A stretch of DNA of 7,142 nt from a virus (lineage: Duplodnaviria > Heunggongvirae > Uroviricota > Caudoviricetes), in the IMG/VR virus record IMGVR_UViG_2740892219_000009, positions 1 to 7,142 of that record. One strand, given 5' to 3'. Made by a program: the position numbers and the translations under genes. The notes beneath the pieces are model-generated. The model was given only the letters and a program-made list of their open reading frames with translations. It did no database searches and was not told where the DNA came from. Below, in pieces: positions 472-7,142 of this stretch. Positions within the stretch are counted from its first letter, which is position 1, and every line of letters begins with the position of its first letter.

Positions 472-782
472 ATGAATAGCCAATGTTTCGCCGCCGACAA
501 AAGGCCGGGACGTTAAATGACAGAAAGTTTGTTCACGAGGTAATTTAACGACAAAGCACGAGGTTAAAACTCCCTCAAAGACCAAAGATAAAAAAGGTCT
601 ACGCTGTTGGTTTCAGAGTTAGTTGCAATATTTCCTGATTATCCTAAGCTGAGTTCTGACTCACCAATTCAGGATGTATTTCAAAGAAGGATGATTAGTT
701 AGATTAATTAAAAAATCTATAAGGGCTCATGAAGAAAGCTAGAAAAAAATCAAATTAACGAACCAAAGCATTGGAAAAACAA

Positions 783-1094
783 ATGAAAGCAATTCAAATA
801 ACTTTAATATTATTACTGTGCAGCACAATCACTGCATGCTTTGCCTCCGATTCTGAAGGAAAATATGTTCAAGGTGACTGCATCACGGCTAACGACTCAA
901 GTTACACTTGGTTTGGTGAGGTGGCAAAAGTAGAAGCCTACACATATATCACTGGTTTTGCCGGTCCAAAGTACATCCTTTACTTCCCTTATTACAAAGC
1001 TGACTCTGTAGTTTTTGAACCTGAAATCGAAAATCACACGATTAAGGTTCCCTCCCGTTACTGTCAAAATATTAATAACGCTTTATCAAGATAA
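783..1094 (+). CDS. Small secreted protein or lipoprotein of unknown function (about 103 aa) in the Q-holin gap; AT-rich moron candidate
   Basis: Track ORF 771..1094 (+) begins at a TTG; the ATG at 783 gives MKAIQITLILLLCSTITACFAS..., a typical signal peptide with a possible lipobox ITA-C or an AXA-type cleavage site. The mature part has two Cys. The gene is visibly AT-rich compared with its neighbours and lies on the strand opposite to late transcription. No family recognised. Confidence 0.55.
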   Translation: MKAIQITLILLLCSTITACFASDSEGKYVQGDCITANDSSYTWFGEVAKVEAYTYITGFAGPKYILYFPYYKADSVVFEPEIENHTIKVPSRYCQNINNALSR

Positions 1095-1155
1095 GAAAGA
1101 ACCAAAACCACGATTATTAGATTTGTGCTCAAATTCACAATTATTGTGTACTATC

Positions 1156-1192
1156 TTCAAAGAATAAGCCCAAGGCTTTAAACCTCGGGCTT
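1156..1192 (-). terminator. Intrinsic terminator candidate on the minus strand (tR'-like), about 50 nt downstream of the candidate late promoter
   Basis: Minus-strand RNA would form a 10-bp stem AAGCCCGAGG / CCUUGGGCUU (one G-U pair) with a 7-nt loop UUUAAAG, followed by AUUCUUUGAA. On the plus strand the same dyad has an A-C mismatch and a weaker U-tail, so it may also act weakly for the plus-strand moron gene. Confidence 0.45.
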
Positions 1193-1247
1193 GAATTTGG
1201 ATTACTACCAGTGCGTACAACATTGGCAAAATATCAGATTTACATGA

Positions 1248-1276
1248 AATATATGCTTTTTAATCCAGTTTTGCAA
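1248..1276 (-). promoter_or_regulatory. Candidate sigma70 late promoter (PR'-like): -35 TTGCAA, 17-bp spacer, -10 TATATT
   Basis: Read on the minus strand: TTGCAA (1276..1271), a 17-nt spacer, then TATATT (1253..1248). Both hexamers are 5/6 to consensus with optimal spacing. The -10 lies 7 nt past the Q-candidate stop codon and the predicted start site (about 1241) is upstream of the hairpin at 1192..1156. This matches the lambdoid arrangement Q - PR'/qut - tR' - lysis genes. Confidence 0.4.
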
Positions 1277-1949
1277 TATCTTGCTGTGAAAATGTCGCCT
1301 TTTGTTTTGAACGTGTTCTCGTTACCAGCAATAAAGCTTCGCTATCAAGCTGTAGAAAAATGCGCTTCATTGCAACCCAGCGTTCAGTGAATGTCTCAGA
1401 CCAGTTTTTTGATGTCACTCCCACCAGTGATGCCAGCTCCTGGTATTCATAGGTCTCACGCCCTGCCAGTTCGCTCTTCACATCCTGTGCTGCCAGCCAG
1501 ATTAACGTCTTCAGGCGATCCAGTGTTTTACCTGCAATTTTTCTGGTACCCAACAGAGCCTTAAACTCGCTCCATGCCCACTGCGTTATGGCAACCTGAT
1601 GCTCCCAGCGAATATTTTCACTGTAACTCCACAGCAACCATGCTTTCTGATGTTCATCGAGAGACAAAATCGCACGCCGCCATGAAGAGGTTGAAAACTC
1701 GACCGAACTGACCAAGGCGACAGATGAACCTTTTGCGTACGACTGTTTACCGGAAATCGGCGGATTATCCAGCGTAATCATCTTGCCAGTTACCTCATCC
1801 AGAATGCGCGGCTTCTTTCGTTTATATGTACCAGTATCAAATTGTGCATGCTCCAGCCAGGCTTCAAGCTGGCCTTTCGTTGCTCCGCTCAAATCAGCGG
1901 TAGCCACCATGAGTTGCTCGCGGACATACTGTAAATATTGGATATTCAT
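1260..1949 (-). CDS. Putative late-gene antiterminator in the Q position (229 aa; not the lambda zinc-finger Q type)
   Basis: Track ORF with ATG at 1949 preceded by AAGGAG at 7-nt spacing; its start overlaps the ylcG-like stop (ATGA). It sits between rusA/ylcG and the late promoter and holin, exactly where lambdoid phages carry Q. The protein contains no cysteine, so it is not a lambda-type Q; assignment is positional. Confidence 0.5.
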   Translation of the reverse strand: MNIQYLQYVREQLMVATADLSGATKGQLEAWLEHAQFDTGTYKRKKPRILDEVTGKMITLDNPPISGKQSYAKGSSVALVSSVEFSTSSWRRAILSLDEHQKAWLLWSYSENIRWEHQVAITQWAWSEFKALLGTRKIAGKTLDRLKTLIWLAAQDVKSELAGRETYEYQELASLVGVTSKNWSETFTERWVAMKRIFLQLDSEALLLVTRTRSKQKATFSQQDIAKLD

Positions 1950-2086
1950 GCGGCAGCTCCTTTCAGCGTTTTGGCGTAATTCTTCAGTATCCGGTAATCG
2001 GTCAAAACAGAACCGGGAAAACTATATAAGCGCAGACACACCCAGCGGCGGCGAAGACGTTCTGCCATATAAGACTCAAACATCAT
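1946..2086 (-). CDS. ylcG: YlcG-like small protein (46 aa) between rusA and the Q candidate
   Basis: Hand-translated from the minus strand: [46 protein letters not shown]. The start overlaps the rusA stop (ATGATG over TGA) and the stop overlaps the Q ATG. Size and position match the small ylcG ORF of DLP12-type prophages as I recall it. Too short for the ORF track. Confidence 0.5.
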
Positions 2087-2445
2087 TCATCTCCCAGTTC
2101 AGTGATGGTCAGCTCCAGCTTCCCACCTTTGGTAACGGGCATCTTCACAACGCGGTAATCAACGACCTGAGCATCATCCAGCCAGAAACCTGCTTTGGTG
2201 AGAGCGTCAAAAGCGGCTTTTTGCAGATTATCCAGGTCACGGCGACGGCGATCCGGCATGTGGCACTCAATGCGGATTTTCACAGGAATAGCCAGGCCGA
2301 TATCCAGCATTGCGTTTTTAATGATTTGGGCGACGTTATCGCGGTATGCCTGCCCCTCTGCGCTGATATGCGTGCGTCCGCGATTATGGCGGTAATAGCG
2401 ATTATTGCTCGGCGGCCAGGGTAGTGTGATGCAGTAAGTATTCAC
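2083..2445 (-). CDS. rusA: RusA Holliday-junction resolvase (120 aa, GTG start)
   Basis: Track ORF 2083..2508 (-) is over-extended upstream; the GTG at 2445 overlaps the ybcO stop (GTGA). The sequence [24 protein letters not shown]...[38 protein letters not shown] is near-identical, from recall, to E. coli RusA, including the acidic catalytic cluster. Confidence 0.9.
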
Positions 2446-2732
2446 GCCTTGATTACCCCTTCTTTCAGCCAGATAACCAGTGTTCTCGCCATACCTTCCA
2501 GCGCACATTCTTTTGCATATCCAGCGTCAACAAAATGCGTGCGACGGTCGATTTCGTCGTGGCAGGCAGAACATGCAATGGTGGCAATCAGGTCTGGCGG
2601 TTTGGTACCGGTGCCGCACAATCCAGTCAGCCGGATATGTGCCAGTACAGACGTTTCAGGGTTGCCATTACATACGCCAGGGATTCTTACCTGGCATTCC
2701 CGACTACGCGCTGCTTTTCTCAAATCAGCCAT
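2442..2732 (-). CDS. ybcO: YbcO-family (DUF1364) putative zinc-binding nuclease (96 aa)
   Basis: The start at the internal ATG ([24 protein letters not shown]...) is preceded by AAGGAGG at 5-nt spacing inside the ninE 3' end. A four-Cys pattern (C-x7-C ... C-x2-C) is present. Track ORF 2442..2771 is an upstream extension. The position between ninE and rusA matches the DLP12 order. Confidence 0.8.
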
Positions 2733-2895
2733 GATTCCTCCTTGCTGCCAGTCGCAACCATTTTTTATCAACCAGGCTGGCGGTATATCCGAGCAGTGTT
2801 GGTATTTCGGAAGGCTTCAGCTCCGGTTTACGCTTACGACGATTTGGTACTCTGTAGATGTGTCCGCTCATGACACGAATAAGTGGTGTAGCCAT
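2725..2895 (-). CDS. ninE: NinE-like protein (56 aa)
   Basis: Hand-translated from the minus strand: [56 protein letters not shown]. The ATG at 2895 overlaps the ninB stop (TAATG) and is preceded by AGGAGG; the stop overlaps the ybcO start (ATGGCTGA). Too short for the ORF track. Confidence 0.7.
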   Translation of the reverse strand: MATPLIRVMSGHIYRVPNRRKRKPELKPSEIPTLLGYTASLVDKKWLRLAARRNHG

Positions 2896-3350
2896 TACGC
2901 CTCCTGCTTGTCGCGCAGCAGCTGGAACTCGCAGCTCTGCGGAATAGTCAGGTGACAGCCAATATTCATCGCCCAGGCTTCAACCTTACACAGGAAGACA
3001 TACATCTCTCCGGTATCAAGATCGGAGGTATGGCGTAACGACTGGATCGTAGTAATTTCACCGGTTACGACATCAACCAGGTCTTTGGTTTCATAACCGA
3101 GGTATGTGTGTTTGAGTGCATCTTTTACCCATACTGCAGTAGCGAACGTTTTACCCCTGCTGATGAGGTACTCACTGATTTCGCTGTACCACATGTGGCT
3201 GAGTGCATTCTGGGAAAGACTGCGTCTCTCGCGCCACGGCTTAAGCACCATGCGAAAGCATTTACCGTCCTCCAGATAAGGCTGGATCTGCTGACCGATA
3301 GCGGTGAAGTTACCGCGATGCAGTTTGATGCCATCTTGTGGGAGGTTCAC
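2895..3350 (-). CDS. ybcN: NinB/Orf-family recombination protein (YbcN-like, 151 aa, GTG start)
   Basis: Track ORF; GTG start at 3350 with a GGAGGT Shine-Dalgarno 5 nt upstream. The motif [23 protein letters not shown] resembles the lambda NinB core (RNRSLDQNRKLW...). It is the first gene of the overlapping nin chain. Confidence 0.8.
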
Positions 3351-3555
3351 GCTTCACCTCCGCAGAGGTCAAACGCTAGATGCAAAGAATTGCAGGTGCA
3401 TTTCTGCATCTGTGAAGGGAGAAGAGAGTTTGGATTGTATGTGCGCATAAACGTCCCCGTTTAGCGCAACCCCACCGCCGGGTGTTCAGGCCGACAGCAG
3501 AAGAATTTTCTCTTATTGATAATTGAAAATCAAAAGAATTTTATCGGTAAATGAT

Positions 3556-3584: not shown

Positions 3585-3620
3585 CCGCCGGATTTTTTAG
3601 TGTAACAAAAGGAAAAAATA

Positions 3621-3977
3621 ATGAAAAAAATGTTGGCTGTCGCATTGGCAACCCTTTTGCTGACCGGATGTACCGTTCGTGTAGCAGACCTTACTGTAGC
3701 CAGTACAAAAAACTATAATTTAAATGGTGGTAAATTTTACAAAGGAAAACGCGTAACTGCAGAAGATAGCTATCCTGTTATCATCTTCCCAACAGGTATT
3801 CCCAATGTAAAAACTGCTGCCGATCGTGCAATCGAGCAAGACCGTTGCGCTGTGGGTCTGACTGACGTTGTTGTAACACAACTTAACCAATCATTCCTGG
3901 TTGGTAAAATTGGTTTACGTGTTGAAGGGAATCTCATTATTGACCGCAGCCTTCCTGGATGCGAAAACGCAGGATGA
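3621..3977 (+). CDS. Lipoprotein (118 aa), probably a divergent Bor/Iss-family member
   Basis: The N-terminus MKKMLAVALATLLLTGC has a canonical lipobox (LTGC) and is nearly the same as the lambda Bor signal peptide. The mature region shows patchy Bor-like similarity by eye (KTAADRAI..., VVTQLNQSFLVGKIGL versus Bor VKTETQQTFVNGLLGF). It is divergent from ninB and followed by a strong terminator. Confidence 0.65.
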   Translation: MKKMLAVALATLLLTGCTVRVADLTVASTKNYNLNGGKFYKGKRVTAEDSYPVIIFPTGIPNVKTAADRAIEQDRCAVGLTDVVVTQLNQSFLVGKIGLRVEGNLIIDRSLPGCENAG

Positions 3978-3982
3978 TGATA

Positions 3983-4010
3983 GTAACCCACTTCGGTGGG
4001 TTACTTTTTA
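3983..4010 (+). terminator. Rho-independent terminator of the lipoprotein gene: 9-bp stem, UUCG tetraloop, U-tract
   Basis: gtaacccac (3983..3991), ttcg (3992..3995), gtgggttac (3996..4004), then ttttta, starting 6 nt after the TGA stop. It is unidirectional; the minus-strand side has no U-tract. Confidence 0.75.
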
Positions 4011-4111
4011 TCTAAATCATATGTGCAGCCAACAAACAATATACAATTTACTCTAAATAGCTGTGGCAGCATTCTCTAACTTAATATTTATTCCGAAACA
4101 GAGTTAATTAT

Positions 4112-5638
4112 TTAAAAATAAACTTCCCCATCAATCATATACCTGAGAGTACTTATCGCCTGTTGGGCAGATATTATTTTCATCAAAGGATAGTGTTTAA
4201 AAACAATACCATTCATAAAATAGATATCACATGTTTTGTTATCTGTGTTTATTATAATTTTTTCGAATGTTTTATAAGCAAGTGTACGACATAATTCCCG
4301 CCCATTTTTACTGGTTAAATCAATGTCATGGAAATCACCAAGTGTACTTACACCTTTACTCTTCAAAGTTTTTAATGATATAGAAACCCTTCGCAATTCT
4401 TTATCTAATACTCTAATTTTTTCTGCTATAGCGGTAACTTCAGGTGCAACAGATAATGCAACAATTAAATTATTAATTTTCATCTGAAGTTCAATAACTT
4501 TCAATTCCAGAGTTTCATTAACATCTTTCTTATTTTCAACTGGTTGGATTTTACTACAATTAAAAAGCAATTCATTAACTATATTATAGTCAACCAAATC
4601 TCTTCTTATTGATGGCCTGTTACATCGATGCAATCTTCTCATCGGGCAAACATAATAGCCGTGCAAGCTTCCTGATACTGCATTAACAATCATAGTATTA
4701 CCACAAGCGCCGCACTTCATAACTGTTCGCAGTAGATTTATCAACATAGGATTCTTGCTACTATTGCTAATACCAAAAGGTGCCAGCCGAATTTCCTGCA
4801 CAGAGTAAAACAAATCATCTGATATCACTCTGGGATAATAGTCAGCGATTTCAATTATTCCCTTCCCTCTTGCACGATATGAAGGTACGCATATACCTAT
4901 CAGCGCTTTATTAGCTAATAATTTTTCAATTACAGAAGGCCCCCATGCACTTTCTTTTCCTGAGAAATTCTTTATAGCATGATCATTTAAATACTTAGCA
5001 ATTGCATTCAAAGAGCGTCTTTCCATCCTTAGTTTAAAAATCAGCTCAATCGTTTTCACCCTGTCAGGGTCTAAGACAAACGACGTTCTTTTTTCATCTA
5101 ATGAAAGCCATCTCGGGCAAGATGCCGTCATAATCGTACCTGACTCCATTGCATCTTGTCTTTTTTTCTTCCATGATAATTTAACTCGGCTTGACTTTAT
5201 CTCGCTTTCTTCATTGGCTCTTTGAGCTATAAGTATTGCTTTTATTAATGAATATGGTTCATTTAAAGAATCAATATTATAAGTTGTATTATCGCACAGA
5301 GTTATAACATCAATACCATGATTTAAAATCAGTTTCAGGCGTTCAATCGCCTCACCGACTTTTTCTCTTGAAAGTCTGTCCAGACTTTCAACTAGCAATG
5401 TAGTTCCTGGCAATATACAGCCATGCTCTATGGCATCTAAAAATTCCGAAAAAGCTCCTGACTGTGCATGCTTTCCATTGAATGCGCTTAACCCCAAATC
5501 TTCATACGTTACGGTATCAAGGTAATAATCACTATTTACCTTTAGCCATTCAGTAATAAGCCTTCTCTGACGGTTTAATGAATCACCAGACATCTGGCTT
5601 GGTGATGAAAATCGCATATATGCTATGGCTTTTTTCAT
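4112..5638 (-). CDS. Large serine recombinase (508 aa; resolvase-type catalytic domain, recombinase domain, Cys-rich zinc ribbon)
   Basis: The N-terminus MKKAIAYMRFSSPSQ...GDSLNRQ...LLVESLDRLSR carries the serine-recombinase catalytic motifs. The C-terminal half has the zinc-ribbon pattern KCGACGN...YYVCPMRRLHRC and a coiled-coil-like region. ATG at 5638 has an AGGTG Shine-Dalgarno. The gene is visibly AT-rich (roughly one-third GC by eye, against over half in the nin module). Size and context recall the DLP12 putative recombinase ybcK, but identity is unverified. Confidence 0.85.
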   Translation of the reverse strand: MKKAIAYMRFSSPSQMSGDSLNRQRRLITEWLKVNSDYYLDTVTYEDLGLSAFNGKHAQSGAFSEFLDAIEHGCILPGTTLLVESLDRLSREKVGEAIERLKLILNHGIDVITLCDNTTYNIDSLNEPYSLIKAILIAQRANEESEIKSSRVKLSWKKKRQDAMESGTIMTASCPRWLSLDEKRTSFVLDPDRVKTIELIFKLRMERRSLNAIAKYLNDHAIKNFSGKESAWGPSVIEKLLANKALIGICVPSYRARGKGIIEIADYYPRVISDDLFYSVQEIRLAPFGISNSSKNPMLINLLRTVMKCGACGNTMIVNAVSGSLHGYYVCPMRRLHRCNRPSIRRDLVDYNIVNELLFNCSKIQPVENKKDVNETLELKVIELQMKINNLIVALSVAPEVTAIAEKIRVLDKELRRVSISLKTLKSKGVSTLGDFHDIDLTSKNGRELCRTLAYKTFEKIIINTDNKTCDIYFMNGIVFKHYPLMKIISAQQAISTLRYMIDGEVYF

Positions 5639-5904
5639 GTTGACACCTGCTAATGCATACTTTTATAAACCTTAGCGGCGAGTTATAATTTTGTTTAATT
5701 TTTATTTAAAAAGACAATCGAGATCACATTTTCTTAAATATACAACAAATACCCCATAGCAATTTGCTGCCACATAAATTCACAGACACAAAAGAATATA
5801 GTGTATAAGCAGCCTAAAAACATTTATCAACAGTATAAAAAGAAGTTCGTTATCAGTGAATTGTTCTGTGATTGGGGATTATTGAACTTCTCGATCGAGA
5901 ATAT

Positions 5905-6198
5905 TCAGAACCCAGCGGGGGAACTCTTTGGCCACAGGAGTTCGTGCGAACATGACGATCCGTTGGTCTCCCCGAAGGCTAAATACTCGAGACGCCTGCA
6001 TTCCACGAGGGTGGTCACTTTGCCCCCTCCTATCATCATGTCTGTAAATTCATCTGAGTGACGAGAGTAAATGCGCTTAGCTGCGTTATCGTCCGCATAT
6101 TCCATTGCTAAACCAACTTCAGTGGCAGTAAGCCAAATTCTGTTGTTGTGGCAAATCGGGGTAAACGTCGTTTTGTGGAATGCTAATTGAGTAGTCAT
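5905..6198 (-). CDS. BRO-N / antirepressor-N-like domain protein (97 aa), possibly a truncated N-terminal fragment
   Basis: ATG at 6198 has a GAGGTG Shine-Dalgarno at 5-nt spacing. The motif F.K..FTPICHNNRIWLTATEVGLAMEYADD...SDEF resembles the BRO-N / P22 Ant N-terminal signature (F.F...IR...DGEPWF.A.DVA..LGY...D.DEK). The ORF ends where composition switches to AT-rich, and there is no C-terminal domain. Confidence 0.45.
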   Translation of the reverse strand: MTTQLAFHKTTFTPICHNNRIWLTATEVGLAMEYADDNAAKRIYSRHSDEFTDMMIGGGKVTTLVECRRLEYLAFGETNGSSCSHELLWPKSSPAGF

Positions 6199-6222
6199 AG
6201 TATCACCTCATCAGGTTAACAA

Positions 6223-6255
6223 TCACCACCAACGACGCCAATCGACAGGTGGTGA
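6223..6255. other. Inverted repeat with 8-bp stem (tcaccacc ... ggtggtga) and 17-nt spacer, upstream of the BRO-N-like gene
   Basis: Arms at 6223..6230 and 6248..6255, inside a GC-rich ORF-free stretch about 25 nt upstream of the BRO-N start. Could be an operator or an RNA hairpin. Confidence 0.3.
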
Positions 6256-6561
6256 ACTGTGCAAGGTTGGCGTAACCGGCTACACAAACCCGGCGCTTCC
6301 GAAGAAGCCCTCACACAGCCCACCATAATTTGGGCGTAGCCGCGCTTAGCGCATAAAAAAACTGCTTAACGCGGTATGCGTTGAGTAGTGTTCCGGGACG
6401 CCAATCCCGTGTGCCGATTTTGCGGCAACACAAAGAATTAGCCCCAGTGAATGGTGGCGGTCAACCGCAGTCATTCATTCTCATAATGTGATCACCATCA
6501 CTCAACAGGTTCCAGAAACCGCTCTATCATACTGACTTTAAACAGTTTTTAGGTGTTAAAT

Positions 6562-6948
6562 ATGTGGTTTATAGTATTAATAGCTATCCTGATTATTGCC
6601 GCTTTCGTTTTTAAAAGCTCCAAATCCAAAAATCCACCTTCGCAACCAGTTCGTACTACTAAAAAAATAAAGGCACCCACACATAAAAAAACGCAAACTA
6701 ACTATAGTTATAGTACCGATATCATTGAGTTAGATATAACTTATCAGGATGCGAAGGGCGAAATCACTAATCGCCATATATCTATCATAAAATACGACCC
6801 TTCAAAGAAAAAAATATATGCACGGTGCCATTTAAGAAAAAGCATGCGAAGTTTCTATATTGATAGAATATTAACCGCAATAGATATTGAAACTGGCGAA
6901 ATTCTTTCAGATCTCGACGGGTATATATCAGAAAGAATAAACTATTAA
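6562..6948 (+). CDS. Small membrane-anchored protein (128 aa) with a WYL-like C-terminal domain
   Basis: Track ORF 6553..6948 starts at a GTG; the ATG at 6562 is preceded by AGGTG at 6-nt spacing. The N-terminus WFIVLIAILIIAAFVF is a single transmembrane helix, followed by a Lys/Ser/Thr-rich linker and a beta-rich domain containing KIYARCHLRKSMRSFYIDRI, which resembles the WYL-domain core (WYL.A.C......R.FR.DRI). The gene is AT-rich. Confidence 0.6.
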   Translation: MWFIVLIAILIIAAFVFKSSKSKNPPSQPVRTTKKIKAPTHKKTQTNYSYSTDIIELDITYQDAKGEITNRHISIIKYDPSKKKIYARCHLRKSMRSFYIDRILTAIDIETGEILSDLDGYISERINY

Positions 6949-7142
6949 CATTCAATATATTTACCCCAAGCATTATGTGCCGGGGCATGTAATTATATGA
7001 CCATTGATAATTCCATTTTGTAAATATTTAGGTTGTCATCAATGATAGTGCGTTTACTTTTCCATACACAGCCAACACTCGTTTCATCGCGACACTCTGG
7101 CGACACTCCTTAAAAATCAGGTTCGTGCTCACCTTTCCTTCC

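What the first reader, a model, noticed from the sequence alone, without database searches (positions are those of the whole stretch)
3980..5905. AT-rich large serine recombinase segment between the nin module and a BRO-N gene that ends at the junction
A complete 508-aa large serine recombinase sits in a segment whose composition is sharply lower in GC than the flanking nin module and the BRO-N ORF. The BRO-N-like ORF stops at the point where composition changes (about 5900), and the other flank is the lipoprotein terminator. This pattern fits a secondary recombinase-driven insertion, or a resident recombinase of unknown role (inversion or excision switch), inside the prophage. Large serine recombinases are not the canonical lambdoid integrase, and neither the target sites nor the function can be read from the sequence.
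Basis: partly seen in the sequence, partly recalled or inferred. Interest (0 to 1): 0.6.

Follow-up and report, generated by a model that had tools for sequence, protein, structure and literature searches.

The report
YbcK recombinase gene in lambdoid prophage
The AT-rich segment carries the Escherichia albertii copy of ybcK, a conserved "second" large serine recombinase that about a quarter of E. coli genomes carry in the same variable spot of lambda-like prophages; ordinary phage mosaic recombination put it there, not its own activity, and its biological role is still unknown.

Summary
Window 4112-5638 (-) encodes an intact 508-aa large serine recombinase (LSR). It lies in DNA of 34% GC between blocks of about 50% GC, and the neighbouring BRO-N gene is cut off at the boundary.

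The gene is not new. It is the orthologue (93-94% aa identity) of E. coli K-12 DLP12 ybcK. ybcK is present in 1421 of 5426 complete E. coli genomes and in inducible lambdoid phages, which also carry a tyrosine Int/Xis. It always sits between ren and ninB and is co-oriented with the early-right operon.

The "segment" is a composite of three parts: a lipoprotein moron (3608-4010), a linker, and the ybcK module (4095-5842). The BRO-N gene is the antirepressor of a C4/isrK-controlled module. Here it is a dead fragment, truncated at 5842|5843, frameshifted, and carrying a nonsense codon.

I found no duplicated att core, no conserved terminal repeats, no empty site, no orientation variants and at most two copies per genome. 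Recombinase-driven insertion is therefore not supported. Mosaic replacement in the ren-ninB hotspot is the better reading.

YbcK itself looks functional. All 86 copies examined are intact, dN/dS is 0.06-0.07, and the catalytic Ser/Arg residues and four zinc cysteines are invariant. Its sites and role remain unidentified.

The parts
4112..5638 (-). ybcK orthologue: intact 508-aa large serine recombinase. Layout: catalytic domain 1-126, alpha-E helix 128-166, recombinase domain about 178-285, zinc-ribbon domain about 300-360 with coiled coil 370-427, and a C-terminal alpha/beta part 444-508.
   Evidence: ORF. Pfam PF00239, PF07508 and PF13408. PHROG 95 'integrase', 2e-116. 93-95% aa identity to E. 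coli YbcK. Invariant R9, S11, Q15, R23, Q24, E84, D87, R88, S90, R91 and C309, C312, C331, C339 across 35 homologues down to 27% identity. Profile hits to SPbeta SprA, A118, phiC31 and Bxb1 integrases. AF2 model with pLDDT 80, whose best Foldseek hits are full-length LSRs. dN/dS 0.06-0.07.
5639..5842 (-). Conserved 5' leader of ybcK (GC 0.29). It is homologous to the untranslated region upstream of K-12 ybcK, which contains a Rho-dependent terminator. The ylcJ small ORF found here in E. coli has lost its start in the window.
   Evidence: About 90% identity to E. coli over the roughly 125 nt next to the ATG, while the synonymous divergence (dS) of the gene is about 0.4. The tybcK terminator is described in PMC4150792. 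K-12 map with ylcJ. No minus-strand ORF of 40 aa or more lies here. The RNA fold is not unusual, z = -0.25.
4095..4111 (-). Short 3' tail of the ybcK module. Homology to E. coli copies ends here.
   Evidence: BLAST extents run 4095-5843 against ML35 and Perceval. Downstream breakpoints of 86 copies cluster 0-50 nt after the stop codon.
5842..5843 (.). Mosaic joint: the ybcK leader (position -205) is fused to nt 357 of the 609-nt antirepressor gene.
   Evidence: Alignments. The same joint is present in all 11 window-type loci.
5843..6198 (-). Antirepressor (BRO-N / Rha / Ant-like) pseudogene. Only the N-terminal 357 of 609 nt remain. Lesions: a 1-nt deletion in the G-run 6009-6011 and a CAA->TAA change at 5879-5881.
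   Evidence: 92% identity to the intact 'Rha protein' gene of phage PhiR26_1. The two ORF pieces, 5905-6198 and 5879-6001, hit consecutive parts of the anti-repressor PHROGs. The frameshifted 97-aa ORF is called in 8 of the 10 independent contigs shown, and all 11 window-type loci carry the same Rha fragment at identical 91.877% identity.
6245..6440 (-). Regulatory RNAs of the antirepressor module: C4 antisense RNA (6245-6330), isrK-like RNA (6355-6427) and the a1/b1 target region (6390-6440).
   Evidence: Rfam: C4 75 bits (gathering score 45), isrK 52.7 bits (gathering 50), c4-a1b1 32 bits (below its gathering score of 46.7).
4011..4094 (.). AT-rich linker (GC 0.31) between the lipoprotein cassette and the ybcK module, specific to this lineage.
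   Evidence: It is not covered by homology to E. coli ybcK loci or to other lipoprotein-cassette loci. GC.
3608..4010 (+). Independent lipoprotein moron: RBS, 118-aa lipoprotein gene 3621-3977, and intrinsic terminator 3982-4005. It is transcribed against the operon.
   Evidence: LPAM_1 lipobox. PHROG 7441, 1e-67. Terminator. 79 other IMG/VR contigs carry the gene at about 75% nt identity, with homology confined to 3608-3982/4010 and no ybcK. No megablast match in complete E. coli genomes.
2895..3350 (-). ninB/ybcN-type gene: the first gene of the conserved nin block and the downstream border of the variable region.
   Evidence: Weak Pfam NinB hit. 94% nt identity to the Perceval and PhiR26_1 nin blocks.
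7028..7142 (-). 3' end of ren, which forms the upstream border of the variable region.
   Evidence: Translation ends in a stop at 7028. Homology to ren of ML35, Perceval and PhiR26_1. Gene order in L004.

Best explanation
What it is. The window is contig BBVT01000064.1 of Escherichia albertii E2675, read on the reverse strand. It covers the early-right/nin region of a lambdoid prophage. The recombinase is the E. albertii orthologue of E. coli ybcK (cryptic prophage DLP12). ybcK is a resident accessory gene of the variable ren-ninB region of lambdoid phages. It is co-oriented with the pR delayed-early operon and lies next to other accessory cassettes.

How it got there. In this lineage the ybcK module (4095-5842) and a separate lipoprotein moron replaced the 3' part of a C4/isrK-controlled antirepressor gene and the ORF downstream of it. 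The mechanism was ordinary phage mosaic (illegitimate or homeologous) recombination. The recombinase did not insert itself.

How it most likely works (inferred, not shown). YbcK is a catalytically competent LSR. A dimer would bind each of two short, non-identical sites. The two dimers synapse through the coiled-coil of the zinc-ribbon domain. Ser11 makes staggered double-strand breaks with 5'-phosphoserine links, and subunit rotation exchanges the strands in one direction.

In the lysogen the gene would be kept off by its AT-rich leader, which in K-12 holds a Rho-dependent terminator. It would be transcribed when N-type antitermination carries pR transcription through the nin region, that is, after infection or induction.

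Its sites are not in the window and are not the prophage's own attachment sites. I therefore read it as a selected 'second recombinase' cargo gene acting on other DNA. The target is unknown.
For: Identity and source:
- The window equals BBVT01000064.1.
- That accession series belongs to E. albertii E2675 (PMC5797873).

Orthology with ybcK:
- 93-95% aa identity and the same 508-aa length.
- The leader is conserved.
- The position between ren and ninB matches K-12 DLP12, ML35 and phage Perceval.

Prevalence:
- 1421 of 5426 complete E. coli genomes carry it, and 1510 of 1511 places are chromosomal.
- It is in 12 sequenced lambdoid phage records.

Second recombinase:
- Perceval has a tyrosine Int and Xis.
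- DLP12 has intD.

Composite, mosaic anatomy:
- The BLAST breakpoints are at 4095 and 5843.
- The lipoprotein cassette occurs independently elsewhere.
- Among 86 copies there are 2 upstream and 10 downstream context classes.
- The PhiR26_1 antirepressor cassette is flanked by 104-nt direct repeats of the sequence upstream of ninB. This is the kind of boundary sequence through which cassettes can be exchanged.

Functional enzyme:
- 86 of 86 ORFs are intact.
- dN/dS is 0.06-0.07 at dS up to 0.47.
- The catalytic and zinc residues are invariant.
- The fold is that of an LSR.

Regulation:
- A Rho-dependent terminator lies in the K-12 ybcK leader (PMC4150792).
- No intrinsic terminator follows ybcK on its own strand. 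This is consistent with read-through towards ninB and Q.
Against: - No recombination site, partner site or directionality factor was identified, so the enzymology is inferred from family membership only.
- Expression through N antitermination is inferred from gene position and from K-12 data on the homologous leader. It was not tested in this prophage.
- The integrase of this particular E. albertii prophage was not seen, because the loci stop about 10 kb upstream. 'Second recombinase' therefore rests on analogy with Perceval and DLP12.
- One curious pattern is not fully explained by random mosaicism. In E. coli a C-terminal fragment of the same antirepressor gene (from nt 298/299) lies just downstream of ybcK. 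In the window an N-terminal fragment (to nt 357) lies just upstream. This leaves a small opening for an old insertion into that gene.
Confidence: 0.72

Rival explanations
1. Self-insertion. A minimal LSR-only mobile element (ybcK plus its ends) integrated site-specifically into the antirepressor gene. Later deletions removed one half of the target in each lineage.
For: - The right joint lies inside the antirepressor gene.
- E. coli loci carry the complementary C-terminal fragment of the same gene about 110 nt downstream of ybcK.
- The two breakpoints are only 59 nt apart (nt 298/299 versus nt 357).
- Homologues in other genera are solitary genes in cargo positions of prophages and plasmids.
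Against: - The two fragments overlap by 59 nt instead of abutting. Serine recombinases make no target duplication, and no locus has both fragments.
- No att-like repeat or conserved terminal inverted repeat was found.
- The 10-nt inverted repeat TGTGGCAGCA (4062-4071 / 5765-5774) is absent from E. coli copies, and its left arm lies outside the conserved module.
- The upstream flank is identical (ren-emrE-ylcJ) in 78 of 78 E. coli-type loci while the downstream flank varies. That is the pattern of recombination, not of independent insertions.
- At most 2 copies occur per genome.
- Compared with the ybcK-less arrangement, the window shows a replacement, not an insertion.
Confidence: 0.08
2. Internal switch. 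YbcK inverts or deletes a segment inside the prophage, for example to gate Q or the antirepressor.
For: Serine recombinases of cryptic prophages can act as invertases with phenotypic effects (PinQ, PMC12529663). The gene lies between regulatory modules.
Against: - It is an LSR, not a small invertase.
- No inverted or direct repeat of 25 nt or more lies around it in 5.5 kb of the fuller locus. The only exception is one weak 26-nt pair at 77% complementarity, with one arm inside the ybcK coding sequence.
- The orientation relative to ren and ninB is the same in every annotated ybcK locus inspected and in the 10 identical-protein places shown.
- All 78 E. coli-type loci share the co-linear ren-emrE upstream flank.
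Confidence: 0.04
3. Decaying relic. An integrase remnant picked up by recombination, with no present function.
For: - In K-12 it sits in a cryptic prophage and is transcriptionally silenced by a Rho-dependent terminator in its leader (PMC4150792); a polyphosphate/Hfq prophage-silencing paper (PMC10954037) also mentions ybcK but was not read.
- Its neighbour in the window is a pseudogene.
- No sites were found.
Against: - 86 of 86 copies are intact.
- dN/dS is 0.06-0.07 across dS 0.1-0.47.
- The active-site and zinc ligands are invariant.
- It is kept in inducible, plaque-forming phages.
Confidence: 0.05
4. Conflict gene. YbcK is kept as cargo because it acts on foreign DNA, such as competing phages, satellites or plasmids. 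It would do so by recombining or cutting at a site they carry.
For: - It occupies hotspots that otherwise hold exclusion or defence cargo: Ren, PD-lambda-1 in PhiR26_1, and a WYL-domain protein next door.
- Homologues sit in the other classical cargo position, after the tail-fibre genes, in Atlantibacter and Yersinia prophages.
- It is a single gene under strong purifying selection.
- There is a precedent that LSR activity at an att site can be turned into a weapon between a phage and its satellite (PMC9638900).
Against: - There is no PADLOC match.
- No published phenotype was found.
- The argument is guilt by association only, and no target was identified.
Confidence: 0.11

Closest known systems
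E. coli K-12 YbcK (b0544), 'putative recombinase' of cryptic prophage DLP12, and its copies in lambdoid phages such as Perceval, 4A7 and Lambda_4C10
   Same: 508 aa; 93-95% aa identity; conserved 5' leader; same place (ren ... ybcK ... ninB) and same orientation; low GC.
   Different: - Upstream neighbour: in E. coli it is always emrE-ylcJ. In the window it is a truncated antirepressor gene, and ylcJ has lost its start.
- Downstream neighbour: in the window it is a lipoprotein moron that gave no megablast match in complete E. coli genomes.
- The allele is deeply diverged at synonymous sites (dS about 0.4).
Phage serine integrases (SPbeta SprA, A118/LI Int, phiC31 Int, Bxb1 Int)
   Same: Domain architecture and predicted fold: catalytic domain, recombinase domain, and zinc ribbon with a coiled coil. 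The catalytic Ser/Arg set and four zinc cysteines are also shared.
   Different: - Sequence identity is only 14-19% over the structural alignments with full-length integrases (21% to the A118 C-terminal fragment), and single-sequence phmmer finds no PDB chain at 1e-3.
- The gene is not at a prophage end next to attP.
- Related host phages have a separate tyrosine Int (Xis intact in Perceval, a pseudogene in DLP12).
- No att sites or directionality factor are known.
LSR transposases and mobile-element LSRs (TnpX of Tn4451, TndX of Tn5397, CcrAB of SCCmec)
   Same: They belong to the same enzyme superfamily. Homologues of YbcK occur as solitary genes in varied replicons.
   Different: No discrete element ends, no terminal repeats, no multi-copy spread and no variable upstream flank were found. 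The comparison with these named elements rests on general knowledge of them, not on a test here.
Accessory ('moron') cassettes of the lambdoid ren-ninB hotspot, e.g. PD-lambda-1 in PhiR26_1 and the alpha/beta hydrolase in Perceval
   Same: They share variable presence among otherwise collinear phages, low GC, sharp homology breaks at gene borders, and a location between conserved replication and nin modules.
   Different: ybcK is co-oriented with the operon and has no terminator of its own, unlike the lipoprotein moron beside it. It encodes a DNA recombinase rather than a typical envelope or defence protein.

Membership tests
Large serine recombinase (serine integrase) family | N-terminal resolvase-type catalytic domain with the nucleophilic serine and the conserved Arg/Asp/Glu set | tested here: met
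   PF00239, 1e-18. R9, S11, Q15, R23, Q24, E84, D87, R88, S90 and R91 are invariant in 35 homologues.
Large serine recombinase (serine integrase) family | Recombinase domain followed by a zinc-ribbon domain with four zinc ligands | tested here: met
   PF07508, 7e-15, and PF13408, 2e-8. C309, C312, C331 and C339 are invariant.
Large serine recombinase (serine integrase) family | Coiled-coil insertion in the zinc-ribbon domain, and an overall LSR fold | tested here: met
   The AF2 model has helices 370-397 and 402-427. The top Foldseek hits are full-length SprA, phiC31 and Bxb1 (E 1e-18 to 1e-12). The profile hits SprA at 4e-23 and A118 at 5e-17. This is a prediction, not a solved structure.
Large serine recombinase (serine integrase) family | Unidirectional recombination between two defined sites | not testable with these tools
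   No sites were identified. This needs a biochemical or in vivo assay.
YbcK orthologous group (DLP12-type) | High identity over the full length, a conserved leader, and a position between ren and ninB on the operon strand | tested here: met
Prophage integration module (integrase next to attP at a prophage end, with excisionase or directionality factor) | The gene lies at the prophage/host junction and is the element's integrase | tested here: not met
   Phage DNA lies on both sides in the window and in all 86 loci. Perceval and DLP12 have their own tyrosine integrases. The integrase of this E. albertii prophage itself was not seen.
LSR-driven transposon or insertion element | Discrete, recurrent ends in unrelated targets; terminal inverted half-sites; multiple copies or a circular form | tested here: not met
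   There are 2 upstream classes only, and the upstream flank is constant in 78 of 78 E. coli-type loci. No inverted repeats are conserved. There are at most 2 copies per genome. The circular form cannot be tested here.
Small serine DNA invertases (Pin/Gin/Hin) | About 190 aa with a C-terminal HTH, acting on inverted sites that flank a nearby segment | tested here: not met
   The protein is 508 aa with LSR C-terminal domains. No flanking inverted sites were found.
Known anti-phage defence systems (PADLOC-DB v2) | Match to a model of a known or candidate defence protein | tested here: not met
   No family matched at E <= 0.01.
P1 immI-like / isrK-type antirepressor module (for the neighbouring 'BRO-N' gene) | A C4-type antisense RNA and its target region upstream of an ant gene | tested here: met
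   Rfam C4 scores 75 bits (gathering 45) and isrK 52.7 bits (gathering 50). The downstream ORF pieces match Ant PHROGs. The ant gene itself is inactivated.

The most novel reading that the evidence does not exclude
YbcK is an active LSR that lambdoid phages (and, in other genera, other prophages and megaplasmids) keep as single-gene cargo for a role other than integration. It would be made only when the phage is active, and it would recombine or break a site carried by competing phages, satellites or plasmids, or by the host. That would be a recombinase used in conflict between genomes rather than for the element's own integration.
Probability: 0.12. Interest if true: 0.65.

Novelty: already known. 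Interest (0 to 1): 0.24.

Why it matters
As a sequence feature this is ordinary: a known, annotated gene family in its usual place, flanked by typical mosaic joints.

The wider point concerns ybcK itself. It is one of the most common uncharacterised recombinase genes in E. coli-group genomes (about 26% of complete genomes). It is under strong purifying selection, and it is retained by viable phages that already have an integrase. Even so, no substrate or phenotype was found in the literature searched.

A defined role would be useful for phage biology. It might also supply a new Gram-negative serine integrase for genome engineering.

The E. albertii allele adds a second, independent genomic context and a deeply diverged sequence for comparative work. 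It also shows that emrE and ylcJ are not obligatory partners.

Tried and rejected
1. Shared att core. I compared the window joint with the ML35/Perceval joint in the antirepressor gene. The breakpoints are 59 nt apart and overlapping, so I rejected this.
2. Terminal inverted repeats. A perfect 10-nt repeat flanks ybcK in the window, but it is not conserved in E. coli or in 9 other homologue loci. I treat it as chance.
3. Empty site. No record in E. coli complete genomes or phages joins the window's flanks. The lipoprotein cassette occurs elsewhere only as an isolated gene at 75% identity.
4. Conserved non-coding motif around homologues of other genera, as a possible binding site. None was found.
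5. Structured leader RNA or a known RNA family in the ybcK leader. There is none: z = -0.25 and no Rfam hit there.
6. Defence-system membership. No PADLOC hit.
7. Single-sequence search of the PDB gave nothing. A family profile was needed.
8. Finding the integrase of this exact prophage by walking left with a neighbouring protein. The IMG/VR scan was swamped by E. coli relatives and did not return the wanted contig.
9. Literature. Papers mentioning ybcK deal with expression, Rho termination or tolerance screens. None deals with recombination.
Full report
OBSERVATION

The window holds a complete 508-aa ORF at 4112-5638 on the minus strand. It matches the three Pfam domains of large serine recombinases (LSRs): Resolvase 1e-18, Recombinase 7e-15 and Zn_ribbon_recom 2e-8.

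The composition contrast is real.
- The finding's interval 3980-5905 has GC 0.341.
- The ybcK coding sequence has GC 0.349, with GC3 0.275.
- The nin block 1351-3450 has GC 0.503, and the block 5843-6471 has GC 0.498.

The ORF at 5905-6198 is BRO-N/Ant-like. It has no Pfam hit, but it matches anti-repressor PHROGs at 3e-13.

WHERE THE WINDOW COMES FROM

The same protein is encoded on 21 public contigs. One of them, BBVT01000064.1 (7142 bp, reversed), is the window itself. That accession series belongs to Escherichia albertii strain E2675 (PMC5797873).

Read on the minus strand, the gene order is:
- ren (3' end 7028-7142);
- a WYL-like ORF on the opposite strand;
- C4/isrK RNAs;
- an antirepressor fragment;
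- ybcK;
- a lipoprotein gene on the opposite strand;
- ninB, ninE, ybcO, rusA, ylcG, Q;
- an opposite-strand small ORF, then the holin.

The fuller locus L004 shows the usual lambdoid early region upstream: exo, bet, gam, kil, cI, cro-like, O, P.

WHAT THE RECOMBINASE IS

It is the orthologue of E. coli K-12 ybcK (b0544, 'putative recombinase' of cryptic prophage DLP12).
- Identity is 93-95% aa over the full 508 residues.
- The 5' leader is conserved.
- The place and orientation match K-12, strain ML35 and the sequenced phage Perceval. In Perceval it is already annotated as 'Large serine recombinase; DLP12 ... YbcK homolog'.

The 1749-nt module 4095-5843 is found in 1421 of 5426 complete E. 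coli genomes. It occurs once or at most twice per genome, and 1510 of 1511 places are on chromosomes. It is also present in 12 phage records.

Perceval also has a tyrosine integrase and excisionase, and DLP12 has intD. YbcK is therefore a second recombinase, not the prophage integrase.

IS THE ENZYME INTACT?

- In an alignment of 35 homologues down to 27% identity, the catalytic set (R9, S11, Q15, R23, Q24, E84, D87, R88, S90, R91) and four cysteines (C309, C312, C331, C339) are invariant.
- A single-sequence search of PDB sequences found nothing.
- The family profile hits SPbeta SprA (4e-23), A118 integrase (5e-17), phiC31 and Bxb1.
- An AlphaFold2 model (pLDDT 80) shows the catalytic domain, the long alpha-E helix, the recombinase domain and a zinc ribbon with a two-helix coiled coil (370-427).
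- The model's best Foldseek matches are full-length serine integrases.
- All 86 copies I collected are uninterrupted ORFs.
- dN/dS against E. coli alleles is 0.06-0.07, at dS 0.37-0.47.

The protein is thus under strong purifying selection.

ANATOMY OF THE 'SEGMENT'

It is composite. BLAST against ML35 and Perceval gives homology exactly over 4095-5843.

To the left of the module:
- an 84-nt lineage-specific linker (4011-4094);
- then a discrete lipoprotein moron (3608-4010) with its own terminator (3982-4005).

That moron is found in 79 other IMG/VR contigs at about 75% nt identity. Homology there is confined to the gene and terminator, and none of those contigs has ybcK. It has no megablast match in complete E. 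coli genomes.

To the right, 5843-6471 is 92% identical to the region of phage PhiR26_1 that holds an intact 609-nt 'Rha' antirepressor gene and its upstream DNA. Only nt 1-357 of that gene remain in the window. The copy also has a 1-nt deletion in the G-run 6009-6011 and a CAA->TAA change at 5879-5881.

The true joint is 5842|5843. The frameshifted 97-aa ORF is called in 8 of the 10 independent contigs shown, and all 11 window-type loci carry the same fragment at identical nucleotide identity, so the frameshift is not a sequencing error.

Upstream of the fragment, Rfam finds:
- a C4 antisense RNA (6245-6330, 75 bits against a gathering score of 45);
- an isrK-like RNA (6355-6427, 52.7 bits against 50);
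- the a1/b1 target region (6390-6440, 32 bits, below its gathering score).

The 'BRO-N gene' is therefore the ant gene of a P1 immI-like / Gifsy-1 isrK-like antirepressor module, and it is now dead.

WAS IT INSERTED BY THE RECOMBINASE?

The evidence says no.

1. Replacement, not insertion. Compared with the ybcK-less arrangement in PhiR26_1 (ren, PD-lambda-1, C4/ant, a 510-nt ORF, ninB), about 1.07 kb is missing and 2.3 kb of composite DNA has taken its place.
2. No repeat at the joints. The joints carry no duplicated core or repeat. The only notable repeat is a perfect 10-nt inverted pair (4062-4071 / 5765-5774). Its left arm lies outside the conserved module, and it is absent from E. coli copies and from homologues of other genera.
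3. Pattern of flanks. Among 86 copies there are only two upstream contexts. All 78 E. coli-type loci have ren-emrE-ylcJ, and the four window-type loci have the ant fragment. There are ten downstream contexts, whose breakpoints cluster 0-50, about 270-280, about 410-420 and about 480 nt past the stop codon. A constant flank on one side with variable cargo on the other is the pattern of recombination within a hotspot, not of repeated insertion.
4. No structural variants. All 10 places shown for the identical protein have the same order and orientation.
5. A likely route for exchange. In PhiR26_1 the ant cassette is bracketed by 104-nt direct repeats (89% identity) of the sequence upstream of ninB. 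Such a boundary sequence allows cassette exchange by homologous recombination.

ONE PATTERN LEFT PARTLY UNEXPLAINED

In most E. coli loci, ybcK is followed, after about 110 nt, by a C-terminal fragment of the same antirepressor gene, starting at nt 298/299. It is annotated 'P22AR C-terminal domain-containing protein'. In the window, the N-terminal fragment (to nt 357) precedes ybcK.

The two fragments overlap by 59 nt, and no locus has both. A clean serine-recombinase insertion is excluded, because that chemistry makes no target duplication. Still, the repeated association with one gene, near its domain boundary, could reflect an old event. I give the self-insertion rival 0.08.

REGULATION AND LIKELY MODE OF ACTION

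The roughly 125 nt upstream of the ATG are about 90% identical between E. albertii and E. coli, although synonymous sites have diverged by about 0.4. In K-12 this untranslated region contains a Rho-dependent terminator that keeps ybcK off (PMC4150792).

The leader has no unusual RNA fold and no Rfam match. No intrinsic terminator follows ybcK on its own strand.

From its position in the pR operon I infer that ybcK is silent in the lysogen and transcribed when antitermination is active. This step is inferred, not shown.

The chemistry is inferred from family membership: synapsis of dimers on two short sites, Ser11 phosphoserine intermediates and subunit rotation. The sites are unknown.

They are not the prophage ends. 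Nothing conserved was found next to homologues of other genera.

CONTEXT OF MORE DISTANT HOMOLOGUES (40-60% IDENTITY)

- Atlantibacter: the last gene after the tail-fibre genes of a prophage, 540 bp from the 3' end of ssrA.
- Yersinia: between a lambda-like tail/autotransporter region and the end of a P2-like prophage.
- Kluyvera: near dinI and a umuC/dinB-family (Y-family) polymerase gene.
- Citrobacter koseri: on a conjugative element.
- Pantoea/Duffyella: a solitary gene among metabolic genes on megaplasmids.

In every case it is a lone gene in a cargo position with no recurrent partner. This is compatible with a selected accessory role, possibly in conflict between genomes. One precedent is that LSR activity at an att site can be weaponised (PMC9638900). 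There is no PADLOC match, and no published phenotype was found.

VERDICT

This is the already annotated ybcK gene in its usual hotspot, in a new host species and with new neighbours. It is flanked by mosaic joints, one of which killed an antirepressor gene.

What remains open is the unknown function of a very common, strongly conserved second recombinase of lambdoid phages. This window does not make that question more tractable than K-12 already does.

Noticed in passing
window 6245-6440 (-): Rfam finds a C4 antisense RNA (6245-6330, 75 bits), an isrK-like RNA (6355-6427, 52.7 bits) and the a1/b1 target region (6390-6440, below its gathering score). They lie just upstream of the 'BRO-N' gene. 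The neighbour is therefore the ant gene of a P1 immI-like / Gifsy-1 isrK-like antirepressor module.
   Followed up: partly
window 5843-6198 (-): The antirepressor gene carries three independent lesions: truncation at nt 357 of 609, a 1-nt deletion in the G-run 6009-6011, and a CAA->TAA change at 5879-5881. All 11 window-type loci carry the same fragment at identical nucleotide identity.
   Followed up: yes
window 6346-6474 (-): The small ORF overlapping the isrK/a1b1 region is 42 aa in the window and in CP117637.1, but 85 aa in sister contigs (L005-L009). The two versions differ by 4 substitutions and one 1-nt gap over 700 nt. It may be the icd/orf45-like leader ORF of the module, truncated here.
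   Followed up: partly
window 6472-7060, ORF 6553-6948 (+): A third AT-rich island (GC 0.33) lies between ren and the antirepressor module. It encodes a 131-aa protein with an N-terminal hydrophobic stretch and a WYL-like region. PADLOC models RTasWYL-YodC (6e-9) and WYL (2e-5) match it. It is transcribed against the operon, so it is a candidate moron or defence accessory.
   Followed up: no
window 3608-4010 (+): A lipoprotein moron (118 aa, lipobox, PHROG 7441) has its own terminator at 3982-4005. 79 other IMG/VR contigs carry it at about 75% nt identity, with homology limited to the cassette. It has no megablast match in complete E. coli genomes.
   Followed up: partly
window 601-1350, ORF 771-1094 (+): Another AT-rich island (GC 0.36) lies between Q and the holin, the classical moron position. 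It holds a 107-aa ORF whose N-terminus looks like a lipoprotein signal (LLLCSTITAC). It has no Pfam, PHROG or PADLOC hit.
   Followed up: no
L003 (phage PhiR26_1) 3824-3927 and 5758-5861: 104-nt direct repeats (89% identity) of the sequence upstream of ninB bracket the whole C4/ant plus 510-nt-ORF cassette. They are a likely substrate for cassette exchange by homologous recombination in the ren-ninB hotspot.
   Followed up: partly
L001/L002 and most IMG/VR E. coli loci, about 110-435 nt downstream of ybcK: In E. coli, ybcK is usually followed by a 99-109-aa ORF that is the C-terminal (P22AR_C) part of the same antirepressor gene, starting at nt 298/299. This overlaps by 59 nt the N-terminal fragment that precedes ybcK in the window. 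No locus has both fragments.
   Followed up: yes
phage records; L002 8574-8906: In the phage collection, emrE (an SMR efflux pump) occurs only together with ybcK; the same 12 records carry both. In 78 of 78 E. coli-type loci the upstream flank is ren-emrE-ylcJ. The window shows that ybcK can exist without emrE.
   Followed up: partly
L021 (Atlantibacter) 8001-10432; L023 (Yersinia) 8001-10232: Homologues at 55-59% identity are the terminal gene after the tail-fibre genes of prophages. In Atlantibacter the gene lies 540 bp from the 3' end of the tmRNA gene, with no tyrosine integrase in between. I could not decide whether these copies act as integrases.
   Followed up: partly
window 5832-5860 (-): A sigma-70-like site (TTCACT, 17-nt spacer, TATACT; 9 of 12 matches) spans the mosaic joint, with the -35 element in the ant fragment and the -10 element in the ybcK leader. 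The number of such sites in the region is no higher than in shuffled sequence.
   Followed up: no
L017: A 253-bp contig filed under Alkalicoccobacillus porphyridii encodes the first 70 residues of YbcK at 94% identity. It is most likely contamination of that assembly.
   Followed up: no
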